NCBI RefSeq assembly: GCF_009914755.1
Contig: NC_060941.1
Direction: 5' to 3' (one strand)
DNA length: 64,000 nucleotides
Source of the DNA: the human T2T-CHM13v2.0 reference genome, Homo sapiens
Shown: piece by piece, positions 8,573 to 16,395 of the stretch
Numbering within the stretch: the first letter of the stretch is position 1
Layout: each line of letters opens with the position of its first letter
Program-made: the position numbers and the translations under genes
The notes under the pieces: model-generated
The model's input: the letters and a program-made list of their open reading frames with translations, nothing else
The model's database searches: none
What the model was told of the DNA's origin: nothing

Positions 8573-8661
8573 ATGTCATGTGATTCTCTGAGGGAGCAGC
8601 TGCGTGAGTGGAGATGCTCTCAGTGGTGGAAAATGGACTGGACCCCCGGGCTGCCATCCCG
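8573..8661 (+). pseudogene. PLEKHM1: Duplicated PLEKHM1 exon 2 (41 nt 5' UTR plus first 16 codons); orphan fragment, not the functional gene
   Basis: ctgtctcttcAG acceptor, ATG at 8614 giving MLSVVENGLDPRAAIP, CCG|GTAGGT donor; recalled PLEKHM1 N-terminus is MLSVVENGLDPQAAIP|VIKKK; no downstream PLEKHM1 exon recognised in the window. Confidence 0.9.
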
Positions 8662-9805
8662 GTAGGTGGGTGAGGGAGGAGCAAGTAATAAAATAAATAA
8701 AACATATTCTACCATAAGGAGCTTATGTTCATCTGGCCTTGGACAGACAAGTAGACAAAGTATTATGACAGTGCTATAACAGAAGTTGAGAGAAGGTGAT
8801 GTCAGAGCAGAAAAGAGCCTAACTGAAGAGACTGATGAAAGTGAGGCTTTACAGAGGAGGTCTACATAATTACTTAACATTCCCCAAAATATATTTAATG
8901 TATTTTGAGCTATACTTATTCATTAACTATACACTTAATGACTTTGCCCTTTTCTGTATACAATGTTTCATATGCCACAATAACATTTATTTCGGATAAA
9001 GTTTACTCATGTTTAATAACCATGAAAAGAAAGGTTAGCATTAGCTGAGAAAACTTCATAATGTTCTACTCCACACCTGTCATGGCTACCCCAACATGGG
9101 CTTCCCTAACATTCCAGGTTTAAACTGGGTCAGTGTTGAATAGCTGTGGCATTAGCCTGGTGCCAATAAACTTAGGGCTGCTGTACTATGAAATAGCAAC
9201 CGGTAGAAGCCAAAGAAAAAGATCAAGAGTCTCCTTTTCCTTCGCCATGTCCCGAGTCAGAGCCAGGATCATGCTTAGGCTGCACAGGCCTAGAAAACTC
9301 CAAGGGTGAAGCAAGCTTCTGCTTTACACAAGGACCAAAGGAACTGGAATGGGTCACAGTTACATGCAACCTTAATACCTCCTAAGTGATTCCTCTGTGG
9401 ATGAACCCTCTCTTAACTGTATTTGCAATACAGCTAACAGGCAATTTCACATACTTCCTTACATCACTCTATCAGGTCAATCTTCCCTATGCACCTCAAA
9501 ATAAACCAGTGACCCCACTGCAGACCAGTTCCACAAGAATTACTCTGGGCTTCCTGAACAAGATAGCTGTCTACAATGCTTTAAAAACCCTATTAAGATG
9601 AGAACCTCAACAGCTTTAAAAAAATTTTGGAGAGAAAGGTGTTCTAAGCTTCTGCAGTTCCCATTCAGCTCCTTCCGTATTCAAAAGTTTCAATGCTCTT
9701 CCACCTCCCATCCTCAATAACATTTCCATCCTCAACTACAGCTGTGTAATCTCAGAAAGTAGTCAGGAGAAGGGATTTTTAAAAACAACCTAAGGGTCAA
9801 GCCAG

Positions 9806-10065
9806 TGCTTCTGGGAGGCCAAGGCAAGGAGGATCACTTGAGGCCAGGAGTTTGAGACCAGCCTGGGCAACATAATGAGACCACATCTTTACAAAAAAAA
9901 CCTTTAAAAATTAGCCAGGCATAATGGCACTCGCCTGTGGTCCCAGCTGCTTGTACTTGCAAGGCTAAGGTAGGAGGATAGCTTGAGCCCAGGAGTTTCA
10001 GGTTACAAGGAACTATGATCTGGCCATTGCACCTCAGCCTGGGCAACAGAGCAAGACCCTGTCTC
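9806..10065 (+). mobile_element. AluJ-type, truncated, no tail
   Basis: Diverged Alu consensus. Confidence 0.85.
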
Positions 10066-11189
10066 TTACAACCTGCTTAGTCCCTATTCTTTCCCCTTAT
10101 TTAGCAGGTGTGAAATTTCAATAAACAAAATTTTCAATAAATAAATATGTTTCAGTGAAATGACGAAAAGGACACAACAGCAAAGTATGTTAGAAAAAAA
10201 ATGCTTTGGAATCAGATAAAAGGTCCTGAGTTTAAATTTAGTTCTGCCTTTTACAAGCCTCTGAAGATTTACTCTGAACATTAAACAAACATACATAAGT
10301 AAACCTTTAATTAGTATACACTCAAGGTACATACATTGTTTTCCTTTCTCCTTCTAAAGCATGGAAGAGATTTTTTTTTTAAATAAGCTGACAAAATATG
10401 AAAATTAAAAGAACACAACCGCATGCAGAAGTAGCACAGAGGACTTCCTAGAAATTGTATTCTTTCTCCAGGGAGCAACAAGAATCGTTATTCCCAAAAG
10501 GGACTCTATTCACTTCACAGCTTGGAAGGTAATACCTACCTCTGACAGAACAGAAACTGGCGTCTGGATCCTAGAATCACCTAGCAGTAGTCACAAATAC
10601 CTTTTTTTTTTTTTTTTTGGTAATACGCCACTTAAAGAAAATTAATGTTAACATGCAACAAAGTAAATCCTTAAAAAGAAAAAGAAAAGCCCCACCATCC
10701 CTGCAATCTCCCACCCAAAGACAAATTATAACTCAACAGCCTATCACCAAGATTCAGCCCATCATCTAGATTCATCTAAAAAAAAAAAAGGCCTGTACAA
10801 CCCAGGAAGCACTGGCAAATCTTGGTGCAGCAGGGAAAACATGAACACCAACCCACTTAACCAAAACACATAAGAAAAAATTTCTTCCATTTCAGTAACT
10901 AAAAAACAAAACAAAAAAACAACAAGCACTTAAAGTGATTACTAACTTGAGCAATAGCTCTGCACCCTGATACTCAAATCTCAGCTCTGCACTCACTTGG
11001 ATGTATAACCGTGAACAAACTACTTGACTGCTCTGATCTTCCATTGTTTATCTTGAAAATCGTGAATGAGAGTAAAATGCTTAGCACAGTGCCTGGCATA
11101 TCACAAGTGCTCAAAAACTTCTATTAATTATAGTGTTACATAAAGACTAAATGCATGTGACTATATCATTGGGGGGAAATTCCATGGCT

Positions 11190-11590
11190 TGTTAGAGCGA
11201 GTTGAATATTCTCTTCCAAATTTATGTTCGCTCAGAACCTGTGAATATGACCTTGTTTGGAAACAGGGTCTTTGCAATTGTAATAAAGTTATGATGAGCC
11301 TTTTAGTGTGGGCCCTAAATTCAATATGACTGATGTTCTTCTAACATGGAAATCTGGACACAGATGCAAAGAGAAAGATGGTCATATGAAGATGGAGGCA
11401 GCAACTGGAGTGATGTAGCTACAAGCCAAGGAACACCAAGGACTGGCACAACACCAGAAGCTGGAAAAAGACAAGGAAGGATTCTTCCCTAGAGCCTCCA
11501 GAGAGAGCATGGCCCTGTTAACACCATTATTTCAGACTTCTGGCCTCCAGAATGGTGGGAGAACACATTTCTGATTTTTTAAGCCATCTT
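11190..11590 (+). mobile_element. MaLR LTR (MLT1B/C-like)
   Basis: GACCTTGTTTGGAAACAGGGTCTTTGCA...GCCAAGGAACACCAAGGA...CTTCTGGCCTCCAGAA motifs. Confidence 0.85.
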
Positions 11591-12037
11591 CTTTAAGTAA
11601 AAGATTATCTATGATGTTGTATTTTACAGACCAAGAAACTGAAGCTCAGAAATGTTGAGTGACTTTTCTTGTCAAGGTTCATGTTAAATAGCTGTGACAT
11701 GTAAGCATCTGGTAGTAAAGCCATGACTAGAAGCAAAACTTTACCAAGTCCAAGTATGGTGCTTAATACAATTCGCTTTGAATGATGAAACTCTTGGACA
11801 ATCAGCATACATTCATGTGCCAAATAACATTATGGTCAATGACAGACCACATAAACAATGATGGTCTTATAAGATTGTAATACAGCTGAAGAATTCCTAT
11901 CTTAGCACAAAGCACTACTCATGTGTTTGTGGTGATGCTGGTGTAAAGAAACCTACAGTGCTCCTATTCGTATAGAAGTATACCACATACAATTATGTCC
12001 AGTAAGAATATAATAGTTGATAATAAGAATTATGTTA

Positions 12038-12338
12038 CTTTTTTTTTTTTTTTTTTTTGAGACAGAGTCTCACTCTGTTGCCCAGGCTGGAGTGCAGTGG
12101 CGCAATCTCGGCTCACTGCAAGCTCCACCTCCTGGGTTCACACCATTCTCCTGCCTCAGCCTCCCGAGTAGCTGGGACTACAGGTGCCTGCCACCACACC
12201 CAGCTAATATTTATATTTTTAGTAGAGACGGGGTTTCACAGTGTTAGCCAGGATGGTCTCGATCTCCTGACCTCATGATCCGCCCGCCTCGGCCTCCCAA
12301 AATGCTGGGATTACAGGCGTGAGCCATTGTGCCTGGCC
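12038..12338 (-). mobile_element. Alu (AluY/Sc-like)
   Basis: Full reverse Alu with poly-T. Confidence 0.95.
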
Positions 12339-12470
12339 AAGAACTGTTAACTGTTAAAAAAAAAAAACTTATTTTTTATGATAAGAAGAAGTGTTATGTA
12401 TTTACTGTACTGTACTTTTAATCGTTATTTTAGAGTGTACTTCTACTCAATTAAAAAACAGTTAACTGTC

Positions 12471-15041: not shown

Positions 15042-15103
15042 TAGCTAATTTTTAAATAAGTAAATCAGGATTTAGCTAATTTTTAAATAAGTAAATCAGG
15101 ATT
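15042..15103 (+). repeat. 31-bp perfect tandem duplication
   Basis: TAGCTAATTTTTAAATAAGTAAATCAGGATT x2. Confidence 0.95.
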
Positions 15104-15186
15104 TAATTTTTACACTACCCTAAGGGAATAAATTAATAATAAAAACTGTGTCCTCAATTAAAGTAGCTCTATCAAATGTTTGGAAA

Positions 15187-15244
15187 ATATATATATATAT
15201 ATATATATATATATATATATATATATATATATATATATATATAT
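15187..15244. repeat. (AT)n microsatellite, about 29 units
   Basis: Uninterrupted AT run. Confidence 0.97.
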
Positions 15245-15796
15245 GTATCTCCAATCTGGAAAGAAGGTAGAAGTCTCCAGTGAAATTTTTGGAATAAAAG
15301 TTTAAATGATTAGACAGCCCACAGAACTTTCACTTCAAACCCTGATCATTCTGTTCATTTTATCAGTTGATCAACCGTTAACTTTTGGCCTACTAATTTA
15401 ACGGATACTGTTCACAGGAAAGCCATTTTCTTAAGGCTTTGACTAGTACTAAGGTCAAAAAGGCATTTTGACCCTTATTTTTAGTAGCCACAGACTTTTT
15501 CTAGACATGGGTCTAGATAAAGATAGAGCTCAGCCATACCAAGCTAATATAAAAAATACTTTGCAAGAATGTAAGCTTCATGAAGGTAGGATTTTTGTTC
15601 ACTATTGTGACCCTACTATGGAGAACGCTGCTGAGACATAGTAGGCACTTTTCCATAAATCTAACAAATATGACAGTTACATCAATGGCTTGCTTGCATT
15701 ATACAGCATTTTTCTTGTTTCCTGTTAACTCAGATACCCACACTGTTTTGTTCTAAATACACGTTCAATTAACCATTATATTCTAATAGTGTTTTC

Positions 15797-16080
15797 CTTT
15801 TAATGAGACAAGGTCTTAGTTGCCCAGGCTGGAGTGTGGTGGCACAATCTTGGCTCACTGCAACCTCCACTTCATGGGCTCAAGTGATCCTCCCACTTCA
15901 GCCTCCTCAGTAGCTGGGACTACAGGCACGTGCCATCATGCTCAGCTAATTTTTGTATTTTTTGTAAACACAAGGTCTCACTATGTTGCCCAGGCTGGTC
16001 TCGAACTCCTGAGCTCAAATGATCCTCCTGCCTTGGCCTCCCAAAGTGCTGGGATTACCAGAGTGAGCCACCACGTGTGA
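15797..16080 (-). mobile_element. AluJ-type
   Basis: Diverged reverse Alu. Confidence 0.88.
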
Positions 16081-16253
16081 TCCCATCAGGTTCTTAAACA
16101 AATTAAACCACTATATCAGGTCATTAAACCACTTGTCTTGAAATAGTTAAAAAGGGGGTTATGGGGAGGGGATTACCAAAGAGGTGGGAGGGGATGGGAG
16201 AAAAGCAATAATGATAGTTTTCAGCTGTACTAAAAAACACCAGACACCTATCC

Positions 16254-16395
16254 CTTATTAGCACATATCTGTTTGTAAATGTCTGTTTGCTGACGAATTT
16301 GATATTCCAAGTCAGAAACATGAGCCTGAAGCCAGTTCCAGCAGCTGACAATAGCTGCCCGGTCTGCAGCCCATCTCCAGTCTGACCTGTGTCTC
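16254..16395 (-). pseudogene. KANSL1: Duplicated KANSL1 exon 3 (142 nt); orphan fragment with non-canonical donor
   Basis: tttatttctttttAG acceptor, then 1 nt plus 47 codons [47 protein letters not shown] versus recalled KANSL1 [47 protein letters not shown]; donor reads AAG|GGATAGGT. Confidence 0.93.

What the first reader, a model, noticed from the sequence alone, without database searches (positions are those of the whole stretch)
8573..16395. PLEKHM1(+) / KANSL1(-) convergent fusion: candidate fossil breakpoint of an ancient 17q21 inversion
Seen: an intact PLEKHM1 exon 2 on the plus strand, a switch to AT-rich DNA about 20 nt past its donor (~8680), then a KANSL1 exon 3 copy on the minus strand, a minus-strand promoter, and the CDC27 3' end. 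Recalled knowledge: the mouse order is Plekhm1-Lrrc37-Rprml-Gosr2-Wnt9b-Wnt3-Nsf-Arf2-Crhr1-Mapt-Kansl1-Cdc27, with Plekhm1, Kansl1 and Cdc27 co-oriented, whereas in human GOSR2/RPRML lie next to CDC27. Inference: an inversion with staggered breaks in PLEKHM1 intron 2 and KANSL1 intron 3 would leave this inverted PLEKHM1 5' piece joined to a stranded KANSL1 5' piece. The ~8680 junction may therefore be the base-pair scar of a rearrangement older than the H1/H2 MAPT inversion.
Basis: partly seen in the sequence, partly recalled or inferred. Interest (0 to 1): 0.82.

Follow-up and report, generated by a model that had tools for sequence, protein, structure and literature searches.

The report
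Fossil breakpoint of ancient 17q21 inversion
Next to the human CDC27 gene, the front ends of PLEKHM1 and KANSL1 are joined at a single base-pair seam that is most likely the scar of a flip of about 1.5 million bases tens of millions of years ago, the event that first laid out today's unstable MAPT region.

Summary
Window 4146-8685 (+) copies the PLEKHM1 5' region, including exon 2 at 8573-8661. That homology stops 24 nt past the exon 2 donor. From 8684 the sequence copies KANSL1 from intron 3 outward on the minus strand, with exon 3 at 16254-16395 and the distal promoter near 35760. The KANSL1 copy runs to about 49357, 3.8 kb from the CDC27 3' end.

The junction (J1) has 2 bp of microhomology, lies in no annotated repeat, and occurs once in the genome. 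The two arms are similarly diverged from their parents (non-CpG 4.3% and 5.5%; 4.3% each within 3 kb of J1).

I also found what looks like the reciprocal junction. The far-upstream end of the working KANSL1 gene is fused to a 448-bp piece of a CDC27 intron, and that piece is fused to intron 5 of an LRRC37 gene. So each KANSL1 block keeps one original neighbour and has one new junction. That pattern fits an inversion flanked by inverted duplications, not a copy-and-paste duplication.

Estimated age is roughly 25-40 million years, far older than H1/H2. Other species' genomes could not be searched, so the decisive cross-species test remains open. No description of this junction was found in print.

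The parts
296..4146 (.). L1-type interspersed repeat and adjoining sequence that stand where the PLEKHM1 promoter, exon 1 and start of intron 1 should be
   Evidence: window 296-3917 matches many L1-like copies at 70-86%. PLEKHM1 homology resumes left of the window (window -81 matches 46350297), so parent stretch 46343838-46350297, which includes exon 1 (46344368-46344437), has no counterpart here.
4146..8685 (+). P arm: copy of PLEKHM1 intron 1, exon 2 and the first 24 nt of intron 2. It continues left of the window into LRRC37A17P.
   Evidence: blocks 4146-5291 (95.2%), 5295-5678 (85.2%), 5684-6491 (96.4%), 6649-7197 (92.5%) and 7482-8685 (88.9%) match chr17:46343838-46336129 on the minus strand; the homology goes on to chr17:47901736.
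8573..8661 (+). PLEKHM1 exon 2 copy, annotated as exon 1 of lncRNA LOC124904015
   Evidence: 85 of 89 bases identical to the parent; AG acceptor, GT donor and ATG kept.
8684..8685 (.). J1: junction of PLEKHM1 intron 2 with KANSL1 intron 3, with 2-bp microhomology (AG)
   Evidence: the two alignments overlap by 2 bases, and neither parental site lies in a masked repeat; the junction is unique in the genome.
8684..49357 (-). K arm: copy of the KANSL1 5' block, from intron 3 out to the far-upstream region. It matches 155.6 kb at the gene and is 40.7 kb here.
   Evidence: colinear blocks match 46949126-46967789 and 47064879-47104775 at 84-94%; the homology ends sharply at about 49355-49357.
11364..11738 (+). 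Exon 2 of LOC124904015, lying in former KANSL1 intron 3 (antisense). This transcript splices across J1.
   Evidence: Annotation supplied with the finding. AG acceptor; the ORF from the PLEKHM1 ATG is only 58 codons.
16254..16395 (-). KANSL1 exon 3 copy
   Evidence: 135 of 142 bases identical, frame open, donor GT lost through a 5-bp deletion.
25801..25802 (.). Scar of a 97-kb deletion inside the K arm. It removed the rest of intron 2, exon 2, intron 1 and the main exon 1.
   Evidence: window 25802 matches 46967789 and window 25801 matches 47064879; 2-bp microhomology; no repeat at either side.
35339..36195 (-). Copy of the KANSL1 distal promoter and first exon. It is the start site of lncRNA LOC101927060 (exon 1 at 35299-35760).
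   Evidence: 91% to 47086603-47087474. GC 0.66-0.69, CpG o/e 0.54-0.67; transcript starts at 35747-35760.
39309..48198 (.). 8.9 kb present only in the window copy (later insertions of repeats and a SIMALR-like retrocopy)
   Evidence: 39308 matches 47103275 and 48199 matches 47103563..
49358..53196 (.). Stretch between the end of the K arm and the CDC27 3' end, with no long-range paralogue; mostly Alu
   Evidence: only Alu-type matches were found.
53197..64000 (-). 3' end of CDC27
   Evidence: Annotation supplied with the finding.

Best explanation
J1 (window 8684/8685) is one of the junctions left by a single ancient complex rearrangement in the primate lineage. That rearrangement was an inversion of about 1.5 Mb whose two ends were duplicated in inverted orientation (the 'dupINVdup' pattern).

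Before the event (inferred). The order was PLEKHM1 - LRRC37 - RPRML ... NSF - ARF2 - CRHR1 - MAPT - KANSL1 - CDC27, as in mouse.

The event. It inverted everything from LRRC37 to KANSL1. It also copied two blocks:
- Block B, about 30 kb: LRRC37 from intron 5 to its 3' end, plus PLEKHM1 exons 1-2.
- Block D, about 156 kb in today's coordinates: KANSL1 from intron 3 out to about 4 kb short of CDC27.

The outcome.
- One copy of each block stayed joined to its gene body, so both genes survived.
- The spare copy of B, now inverted, was joined to the spare copy of D, which stayed beside CDC27. That joint is J1.
- The reciprocal joint lies far upstream of the working KANSL1 gene. There the end of D is fused to 448 bp copied from a CDC27 intron 55 kb further on (J2). 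That fragment is fused to a (GGAA)n repeat in LRRC37 intron 5 (J3).

Mechanism (inferred). Short microhomologies and a templated insertion point to replication-based template switching or end joining, not recombination between repeats.

Later decay of the spare copies (shown). The K arm lost 97 kb. The P arm lost its exon 1 and gained an L1. Parts of the P arm were overwritten by later exchange with the PLEKHM1/LRRC37A4P locus.

Today (shown). The locus has no coding function. The copied KANSL1 distal promoter drives lncRNA LOC101927060. The PLEKHM1 exon 2 donor is used by lncRNA LOC124904015.

Shown versus inferred. The sequence relationships, junction positions and divergences are shown by the calls. 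The single-event reading, its mechanism, its direction and its date are inferred.
For: 1. J1 is clean at base-pair level, non-repeat and unique.

2. The two KANSL1 blocks each have one original neighbour and one new junction.
- The window copy runs on towards CDC27 but ends in J1 on its other side.
- The gene copy is continuous with exon 4 onward but ends at 47104775 in J2. There a unique 448-bp CDC27-intron fragment (chr17:48030536-48031039) is attached in the same orientation, with up to 5 bp of microhomology.
- In one search that fragment was found in only 3 places: the CDC27 intron, KANSL1 upstream, and its 99% inverted twin at 46464890.

3. The fragment is followed by a GA-rich repeat and LRRC37 intron 5 to exon 6 sequence, in the orientation expected for the LRRC37 gene upstream of PLEKHM1. 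LRRC37B shows that the GA repeat is an original part of intron 5.

4. All duplicated pieces have similar ages (non-CpG K2P).
- K arm 0.058-0.064; P arm 0.045-0.052, and 0.067 in the 1.2 kb next to J1.
- Within 3 kb of J1: 105 of 2433 sites on the P side and 116 of 2721 on the K side.
- CDC27 fragment 20 of 440 sites (0.047); LRRC37 piece 62 of 865 sites (0.073-0.076).
- Per-kilobase bins do not differ significantly between the arms (12 and 29 bins, Mann-Whitney p = 0.10).

5. The window copies branch off before the younger duplicates.
- In 7 of 7 P blocks they are outgroup to PLEKHM1 and PLEKHM1P1, which differ by 0.008-0.015.
- In 3 of 3 distal K blocks they are outgroup to KANSL1 upstream and its left twin, which differ by 0.011-0.013.

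6. Gene order. In this genome RPRML-LRRC37A17P-[P arm][K arm]-CDC27 keeps both mouse-type neighbourhoods.

7. Papers (passages read).
- Mouse Crhr1-Sppl2c-Mapt-Kansl1 lie in the H1 orientation (PMC5531616).
- The ancestral primate state is H2-like (PMC13381761).
- Mouse Lrrc37a1 and Lrrc37a2 flanks are syntenic to human LRRC37A4 and to LRRC37A5 at hg18 42.4 Mb. I take the latter locus to be LRRC37A17P (PMC3530683).
- Together these require an inversion between the mouse-like state and the ancestral primate state.
Against: - No genome of another species could be searched, so neither the direction nor the date is tested directly.
- The Kansl1-Cdc27 adjacency in mouse is recalled and comes from no call.
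- The P arm is a mosaic. Its identity to the PLEKHM1/LRRC37A4P locus is 99.1%, 95.9%, about 90%, 95-96%, 92.5% and 88.9% from left to right. Later exchange has therefore overwritten parts of it, and its mean divergence (4.3%) is below that of the K arm (5.5%).
- In this haplotype the LRRC37 piece at J3 is about 75 kb from the LRRC37A4P/PLEKHM1 block, separated by younger duplications.
- That LRRC37 piece is about equally distant (87-88%) from A-type and B-type LRRC37 copies. It cannot be assigned to a lineage.
- Microhomology of 2 bp at J1 is no more than chance would often give.
- J1 could be a later deletion scar inside larger original duplications.
Confidence: 0.7

Rival explanations
1. J1 is a secondary deletion scar. 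The inversion, or an inverted duplication, first left larger or even whole spare copies of PLEKHM1 (+) and KANSL1 (-) facing each other tail to tail beside CDC27. A later deletion removed both 3' parts and joined intron 2 to intron 3.
For: The locus shows later deletions of this kind, with the same 2-bp microhomology. One is the 97-kb deletion at 25801/2. Another is the loss of PLEKHM1 exon 1. The convergent orientation is what such a deletion would leave.
Against: It needs an extra event and much larger initial duplications. No trace of PLEKHM1 exon 3 onward or KANSL1 exon 4 onward is seen near J1. The arms on both sides of J1 are equally diverged, which fits this reading too, so the point is not discriminating.
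Confidence: 0.15
2. Mosaic segmental duplication. A PLEKHM1/LRRC37 piece and a KANSL1 5' piece were each copied, independently or together, into a site beside CDC27 by duplicative transposition, unrelated to any inversion.
For: The region is a known hotspot of LRRC37-centred segmental duplication (PMC3530683 and PMC3371713, passages). The P arm clearly received later duplicated or converted sequence.
Against: In a transposition the donor keeps both neighbours and the copy has two new junctions. Here the donor-like KANSL1 gene copy has a new junction of its own, J2. That junction carries CDC27-intron sequence colinear with the window arrangement. The window copy has no detectable second junction before CDC27. 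A transposed piece would also have had to land by chance where KANSL1 sits in mouse, in the same orientation (mouse order recalled).
Confidence: 0.08
3. The large inversion arose by homologous recombination between older inverted LRRC37 copies, as the H1/H2 inversion does. J1 formed separately and only happens to lie nearby.
For: Mouse and rat already have two tandem Lrrc37 copies (PMC3530683). Long inverted LRRC37 repeats at 99.1% identity exist today between LRRC37A17P and LRRC37A4P. A chimpanzee 1.4-Mb inversion reaches RPRML (PMC13381761).
Against: Recombination between repeats does not create fusions of unrelated introns, duplicate 156 kb of KANSL1, or insert a CDC27 fragment. J1, J2 and J3 lie in unique sequence or a simple repeat, not in long repeats. 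The 99% repeats are far younger than the roughly 6% junction-flanking layers.
Confidence: 0.05
4. Assembly artefact: the junction is a misjoin in the reference.
For: None seen.
Against: Both flanks are about 4-6% diverged from their parents. A chimeric join of the parental loci would be near-identical to them. RefSeq models two lncRNAs whose introns span J1 with canonical splice sites.
Confidence: 0.01

Closest known systems
The human 17q21.31 H1/H2 (MAPT) inversion
   Same: Same chromosomal neighbourhood. It involves LRRC37-bearing duplicated blocks and KANSL1 5' sequence at its ends. One of its flanking repeats carries a copy of J2/J3.
   Different: H1/H2 spans about 0.97 Mb, is about 2.4 million years old (PMC13381761), and toggles by recombination between long repeats that are about 99% identical. 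The event here is larger (about 1.5-1.6 Mb, from PLEKHM1 to CDC27) and much older (about 5-6% paralogue divergence). Its junctions show only microhomology.
The chimpanzee H1p/H2p inversion of about 1.4 Mb (PMC13381761)
   Same: It covers the same interval as the event inferred here, the MAPT block plus WNT3, WNT9B, GOSR2 and RPRML. It would roughly restore the mouse-like order.
   Different: It is about 330,000 years old and polymorphic. Its breakpoints are shown in a supplementary figure that I could not open. I infer, but did not test, that it uses the inverted LRRC37/PLEKHM1 blocks created by the ancient event.
Inversions flanked by inverted duplications: the Drosophila 'staggered-break' inversions and the human 'dupINVdup' class of complex variants (recalled from the literature; no paper read here)
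   Same: Two blocks are each present twice in opposite orientation at the inversion ends. Each copy has one old and one new neighbour. The junctions show microhomology or short insertions.
   Different: The duplicated blocks here are large (about 30 kb and about 156 kb). The event is fixed and tens of millions of years old. It has been overprinted by later duplications, deletions and conversion.
Polymorphic partial duplications of the KANSL1 5' end (alpha and beta duplications; 10.64898/2026.09.28.755014)
   Same: These are also spare copies of the KANSL1 promoter and first exons that give non-coding or truncated transcripts.
   Different: They are young, in direct orientation, near-identical to the gene and copy-number variable. 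The window copy is old, fixed in the reference, lies next to CDC27, and lacks exon 2 and the main promoter.
The hominine paracentric inversion 17q12-17q23 (PMC2374708)
   Same: An evolutionary inversion on 17q with duplications at its breakpoints.
   Different: Its breakpoints lie at hg18 33.3-33.7 Mb and 57.7 Mb. The window lies inside that inverted segment, not at its ends, so it is a different event.

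Membership tests
Inversion flanked by inverted duplications of both breakpoint regions (staggered-break / dupINVdup class) | Two sequence blocks are each present twice, in opposite orientation, at the two ends of the inverted segment | tested here: met
   The P arm (+) pairs with PLEKHM1/LRRC37A4P (-). The K arm is now parallel to KANSL1 because this haplotype is H1; it would be opposite in the ancestral H2-like state. 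Its distal part is inverted relative to the left twin at 46.46-46.48 Mb.
Inversion flanked by inverted duplications of both breakpoint regions (staggered-break / dupINVdup class) | Each copy of the KANSL1 block keeps one original neighbour and has one new junction | tested here: met
   Window copy: J1 on one side, continuous towards CDC27 on the other. Gene copy: continuous with exon 4 onward, J2 at the far end.
Inversion flanked by inverted duplications of both breakpoint regions (staggered-break / dupINVdup class) | Each copy of the PLEKHM1/LRRC37 block keeps one original neighbour and has one new junction | tested here: inconclusive
   The window copy ends in J1 and runs into LRRC37A17P. 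An LRRC37 intron 5 piece is fused at J3. It is not contiguous with PLEKHM1 in this haplotype, and its lineage is unresolved.
Inversion flanked by inverted duplications of both breakpoint regions (staggered-break / dupINVdup class) | The duplicated blocks are of equal age | tested here: met
   Non-CpG divergence is 4.3% (bin-bootstrap interval 3.5-5.4) for the P arm and 5.5% (4.9-6.2) for the K arm. It is 4.3% on each side within 3 kb of J1. Mann-Whitney p = 0.10. CDC27 fragment 0.047 and LRRC37 piece 0.075. Both arms are heterogeneous.
Inversion flanked by inverted duplications of both breakpoint regions (staggered-break / dupINVdup class) | Gene order between the junctions is inverted relative to an outgroup, and the junctions are absent from species with the uninverted order | not testable with these tools
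   No non-human eukaryote genome is on hand. There is partial support from passages in PMC5531616, PMC3530683 and PMC13381761. The full mouse order is recalled.
Inversion by homologous recombination between pre-existing inverted repeats (as H1/H2) | Breakpoints lie inside long, highly similar inverted repeats | tested here: not met
   Both parental sites of J1 are unique, unmasked sequence with only 2 bp in common. J2 shares at most 5 bp.
Duplicative transposition (mosaic segmental duplication) | The donor locus keeps both neighbours and the copy has two new junctions | tested here: not met
   For the KANSL1 block, the gene-side copy carries the new junction J2, and the window copy has only J1.
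Processed pseudogene (retrocopy) | Introns are absent, a poly(A) tail is present, and only exons are copied | tested here: not met
   Both arms are mostly intron and intergenic DNA, colinear with the genomic parents.

The most novel reading that the evidence does not exclude
One complex replication-type event in an early anthropoid or catarrhine ancestor produced the ancestral 'H2-like' order of 17q21.31. It also produced the first inverted pair of LRRC37/PLEKHM1 blocks and the first spare KANSL1 5' block. On this reading, this single scar marks the founding event of the whole unstable architecture: the spread of the LRRC37 core duplicon, the recurrent MAPT-region inversions in humans and apes, and the predisposition to the Koolen-de Vries microdeletion. 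All three of its junctions (J1, J2, J3) survive and can be read at base-pair level.
Probability: 0.3. Interest if true: 0.8.

Novelty: new member of a known kind. Interest (0 to 1): 0.6.

Why it matters
The 17q21.31 region is a textbook case of a recurrently inverting, disease-linked part of the human genome. Published work starts its history from the 'ancestral H2' state.

This junction and its reciprocal partner give a base-pair record of the earlier step that turned the mouse-like order into that state. They suggest the step was a duplicating, non-homologous event. They also show that it created the first inverted LRRC37/PLEKHM1 repeat pair, about 1.5 Mb apart.

That makes several questions directly testable in complete primate assemblies that are already public:
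- When did the region first invert?
- Did the event seed the LRRC37 core duplicon?
- Does the same repeat pair mediate the chimpanzee 1.4-Mb inversion?

It also explains the origin of the annotated lncRNAs LOC101927060 and LOC124904015, and of the LINC02210 promoter.

Tried and rejected
1. Tracing the PLEKHM1-side block from J3 to PLEKHM1. I then fetched only small pieces. A genome search with LRRC37A17P exons 8-14 listed no copy next to J3. It also failed to list the 99% LRRC37A4P matches that I know exist. It scored 38 of 17,269 candidates, so I treat its blank as uninformative.

2. Papers.
- Zody 2008 (tried by DOI and by PMC id), Zody 2006 and Steinberg 2012 are not held. What I say of them is recalled or taken from how other papers cite them.
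- Cardone 2008 describes a different inversion, 17q12-17q23.
- The macaque strand-sequencing paper had nothing on this locus in its main text.
- A swine paper lists these genes alphabetically, so it says nothing about order.
- Six full-text searches found no description of a PLEKHM1/KANSL1 junction beside CDC27.
The Supplemental Note of PMC3530683 (synteny of the LRRC37 flanks) and Supplementary Fig. 2 of PMC13381761 (chimpanzee breakpoints) may bear on the claim.

3. Dating by repeats. I considered classifying shared and copy-specific Alu and L1 insertions. A rough reading of L1 pairwise identities was too uncertain to use.

4. Microhomology. Two base pairs at J1 is not beyond chance, so I give it no weight on its own.

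5. The shared boundary at the GA-rich repeat. LRRC37B-type copies lose homology to LRRC37A17P at the same repeat as J3. I first suspected this undermined J3. The LRRC37B sequence shows the repeat is an original part of intron 5, and that A-type copies carry about 12.6 kb of extra sequence to its left. Only the KANSL1-upstream copies have the CDC27 fragment there.

6. Protein, structure and RNA-family tools were not used. The question is one of genomic DNA relationships.

Full report
SETTING. The window is chr17:47926001-47990000 of T2T-CHM13. On this haplotype the gene order is: PLEKHM1(-), LRRC37A4P(-), LINC02210(+), ARF2P, CRHR1(+), MAPT(+), KANSL1(-), LRRC37A(+), LRRC37A2, NSF(+), WNT3(-), WNT9B(+), GOSR2(+), RPRML(-), LRRC37A17P(+), then the window, whose right end holds the 3' end of CDC27(-).

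THE OBSERVATION. A search of the genome with window 1-20000 matched window 4146-8685 to the PLEKHM1 5' region (chr17:46343838-46336129, minus strand, 89-96%). It also matched the PLEKHM1P1 locus at 65.70 Mb. Window 8650-17000 matched the KANSL1 locus on the plus strand from 46949126 onward (87-92%).

With the RefSeq exon tables, the PLEKHM1 match ends 24 nt into intron 2. The KANSL1 match begins inside intron 3. Local BLAST against fetched parental DNA puts the last PLEKHM1-like base at window 8685 and the first KANSL1-like base at 8684, an overlap of two bases (AG). Neither parental site lies in a masked repeat.

The exon 2 copy (8573-8661) keeps its splice sites and ATG, with 4 of 89 changes. 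The KANSL1 exon 3 copy is at 16254-16395 on the minus strand, with 7 of 142 changes and a destroyed donor. GC drops from 0.56 to 0.36 across the junction. In a targeted search of window 7500-9800, all 4 of 4 candidates were scored: self, KANSL1, PLEKHM1 and PLEKHM1P1. The junction, J1, exists once in this genome.

EXTENT OF THE KANSL1 ARM. The homology continues colinearly:
- Window 8684-25802 matches 46949126-46967789.
- A jump follows: window 25801-30625 matches 47064879-47069714.
- Further blocks reach the KANSL1 distal promoter (window 35339-36195, matching 47086603-47087474).
- Window 36702-39308 and 48199-49354 match 47100647-47104775.

The jump is a clean 97-kb deletion with 2-bp microhomology. 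It removed exon 2 and the main first exon. Homology ends sharply at about window 49355-49357, in unique sequence. From there to the CDC27 3' end (53197) I found only Alu-type matches. The copy therefore spans KANSL1 intron 3 to within 3.8 kb of CDC27. That is 155.6 kb at the gene and 40.7 kb in the window.

EXTENT OF THE PLEKHM1 ARM. Left of an L1-type insertion (about 296-4146) the homology resumes outside the window and runs through LRRC37A17P. The PLEKHM1 promoter and exon 1 (46343838-46350297) have no counterpart.

Identity to the PLEKHM1/LRRC37A4P locus is a mosaic:
- 99.1% over 12.2 kb (47901736-47913910);
- 95.9% over 3.6 kb;
- about 90% over 6.4 kb;
- then, inside the window, 95.2%, 85.2% (Alu-like), 96.4%, 92.5% and 88.9% up to J1.

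Parts of this arm were clearly overwritten by later exchange.

A SECOND SET OF JUNCTIONS. I asked what lies beyond the end of the KANSL1 block at the working gene. A genome search with 47104700-47107900 found four components:
- 448 bp matching a unique stretch of a CDC27 intron (chr17:48030536-48031039);
- a GA-rich simple repeat;
- a young MAPK8IP1 retrocopy;
- more GA-rich repeat.

The whole query also matched its own 99% inverted twin at 46461732-46464965.

The alignment shows that window-type homology ends at 47104775 and CDC27-intron homology starts at 47104771. The shared stretch is five bases, one of which differs in the window. I call this junction J2. The fragment has the same orientation as CDC27 has relative to the window's KANSL1 block, and lies 55 kb further along.

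After the fragment comes (GGAA)n and then sequence matching LRRC37 intron 5 (47107853-47109233, matching LRRC37A17P 47904182-47905686). This runs on into the exon 6 region of other LRRC37 copies. I call the joint between the fragment and the repeat J3.

LRRC37B shows that the GA repeat is an original part of intron 5. Only the KANSL1-upstream copies have CDC27 sequence in place of the upstream half of the intron. In the left twin, the LRRC37 piece points towards PLEKHM1, as the gene upstream of PLEKHM1 should.

WHAT THE TOPOLOGY MEANS. The two KANSL1 blocks each have one original neighbour and one new junction. The window copy has J1 and runs on towards CDC27. The gene copy is continuous with the gene body and ends in J2.

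A copy-and-paste duplication would leave the donor with both neighbours intact. An inversion whose ends were duplicated leaves exactly the pattern seen. The CDC27-intron fragment at J2 also shows, from this genome alone, that the block now attached to KANSL1 was copied from a template lying beside CDC27.

AGES. I excluded CpG sites and compared against the parents.
- The K arm has K2P 0.064 over 26,788 sites, or 0.058 on 18,311 unmasked sites.
- The P arm has K2P 0.052 over 10,178 sites, or 0.045 on 7,927 unmasked sites.
- Both arms are heterogeneous: 1-kb bins range from 0.018 to 0.091.
- The 3 kb on either side of J1 are alike: 105 of 2433 sites and 116 of 2721 sites. Bin values do not differ significantly (p = 0.10).
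- The CDC27 fragment (20 of 440 sites) and the LRRC37 piece (62 of 865 sites) fall in the same range.
- The window copies are outgroups to the younger duplicates in 7 of 7 P-arm blocks and 3 of 3 distal K-arm blocks.

On all unmasked sites the raw differences are 5.1% (P arm) and 6.3% (K arm). Cardone et al. quote 94.5% human-macaque identity and about 25 million years (PMC2374708, passage). By inference the event dates to about the human-macaque split or earlier. I put it at roughly 25-40 million years, allowing for conversion and for rate slowdown, and this is only an estimate. It is far older than H1/H2, whose coalescence is put at 2.38 million years (PMC13381761, passage).

FIT WITH PUBLISHED WORK (passages only).
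- Mouse Crhr1, Sppl2c, Mapt and Kansl1 lie in the orientation of human H1 (PMC5531616).
- The ancestral primate arrangement is H2-like (PMC13381761, citing Zody 2008, which I could not read).
- Mouse Lrrc37a1 and Lrrc37a2 are syntenic, by flanking genes, to human LRRC37A4 and to LRRC37A5 at hg18 42.4 Mb. I take that locus to be LRRC37A17P. Macaque has likely orthologues of both (PMC3530683).
- An inversion between the mouse-like and ancestral primate orders is therefore implied by the literature. I found no description of its breakpoints in six searches.
- The chimpanzee polymorphic inversion of about 1.4 Mb covers the same interval out to RPRML.

MOST LIKELY HISTORY (inferred). One complex event inverted the segment from LRRC37 to KANSL1. 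It duplicated about 30 kb at the PLEKHM1/LRRC37 end and about 156 kb at the KANSL1 end. It left three junctions:
- J1: PLEKHM1 intron 2 joined to KANSL1 intron 3.
- J2: the end of the KANSL1 block joined to a CDC27-intron fragment.
- J3: the fragment joined to the LRRC37 intron 5 GA repeat.

The microhomologies, the templated insertion and a break in a purine-rich repeat suggest template switching during replication or end joining. The spare copies then decayed. Their promoters and splice sites now serve lncRNAs LOC101927060 and LOC124904015. The latter could encode at most a 58-residue peptide from the PLEKHM1 ATG.

WHAT REMAINS OPEN.
- No other species could be examined.
- The mouse Kansl1-Cdc27 adjacency is recalled.
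- The PLEKHM1-side block at J3 could not be traced to PLEKHM1.
- J1 might be a secondary deletion inside larger original duplicates.

I put 0.7 on the single-event inversion-scar reading, 0.15 on the secondary-deletion variant, and little on the other rivals.

Noticed in passing
Just left of the window: chr17:47901736-47913910 (L015-L016) versus chr17:46377832-46390000 (L024-L025): 12.2 kb of LRRC37A17P is 99.1% identical, in inverted orientation, to the LRRC37A4P locus about 1.5 Mb away. A 4-kb unit is present once here and three times there. Such a pair could mediate an inversion of about 1.5 Mb in humans, like the one reported in chimpanzee.
   Followed up: partly
Window 35339-36195; chr17:47086603-47087474; chr17:46481584-46482455: All three copies of the KANSL1 distal promoter are annotated transcription starts. 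They belong to a KANSL1 isoform (47087028, -), LINC02210 / LINC02210-CRHR1 (46482013 / 46482030, +) and LOC101927060 (window 35760, -).
   Followed up: partly
Window 40545-41552: This stretch matches only the lncRNA SIMALR locus on chr6: two blocks, 139132671-139133547 and 139134087-139134239, joined at 93% identity. It looks like a retrocopy of a lncRNA. It lies inside an 8.9-kb insertion present only in the window copy.
   Followed up: partly
Window 25801-25802: A clean 97-kb deletion with 2-bp microhomology removed KANSL1 exon 2 and the main promoter from the spare copy.
   Followed up: yes
Window 296-4146 and about 80 bp left of the window: An L1-type element stands where 6.5 kb of PLEKHM1 promoter, exon 1 and start of intron 1 should be. 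The insertion may have come with a deletion.
   Followed up: partly
Window 12040-12358 and 12473-12778: A pair of Alu elements in inverted orientation, about 115 bp apart, is present in the window copy but not in KANSL1 intron 3.
   Followed up: no
L011 5228-7966 (chr17:47105228-47107966): The MAPK8IP1P1 retrocopy (95-99% to the MAPK8IP1 exons on chr11) sits inside the GA-rich repeat at junction J3 and splits it in two.
   Followed up: partly
L015/L021-L022 (chr17:47891538-47904182) versus L027 (chr17:32976501-32979500): A-type LRRC37 copies carry about 12.6 kb of extra sequence in intron 5 that LRRC37B lacks. Its right edge is at the same GA-rich repeat that forms J3, so this repeat seems to have been a break site at least twice.
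   Followed up: partly
Window 8573-8661 plus 11364-11738: LOC124904015 joins the PLEKHM1 exon 2 copy to an exon in former KANSL1 intron 3. From the PLEKHM1 ATG it has a 58-codon ORF, 16 codons from PLEKHM1. There is no evidence of translation.
   Followed up: partly
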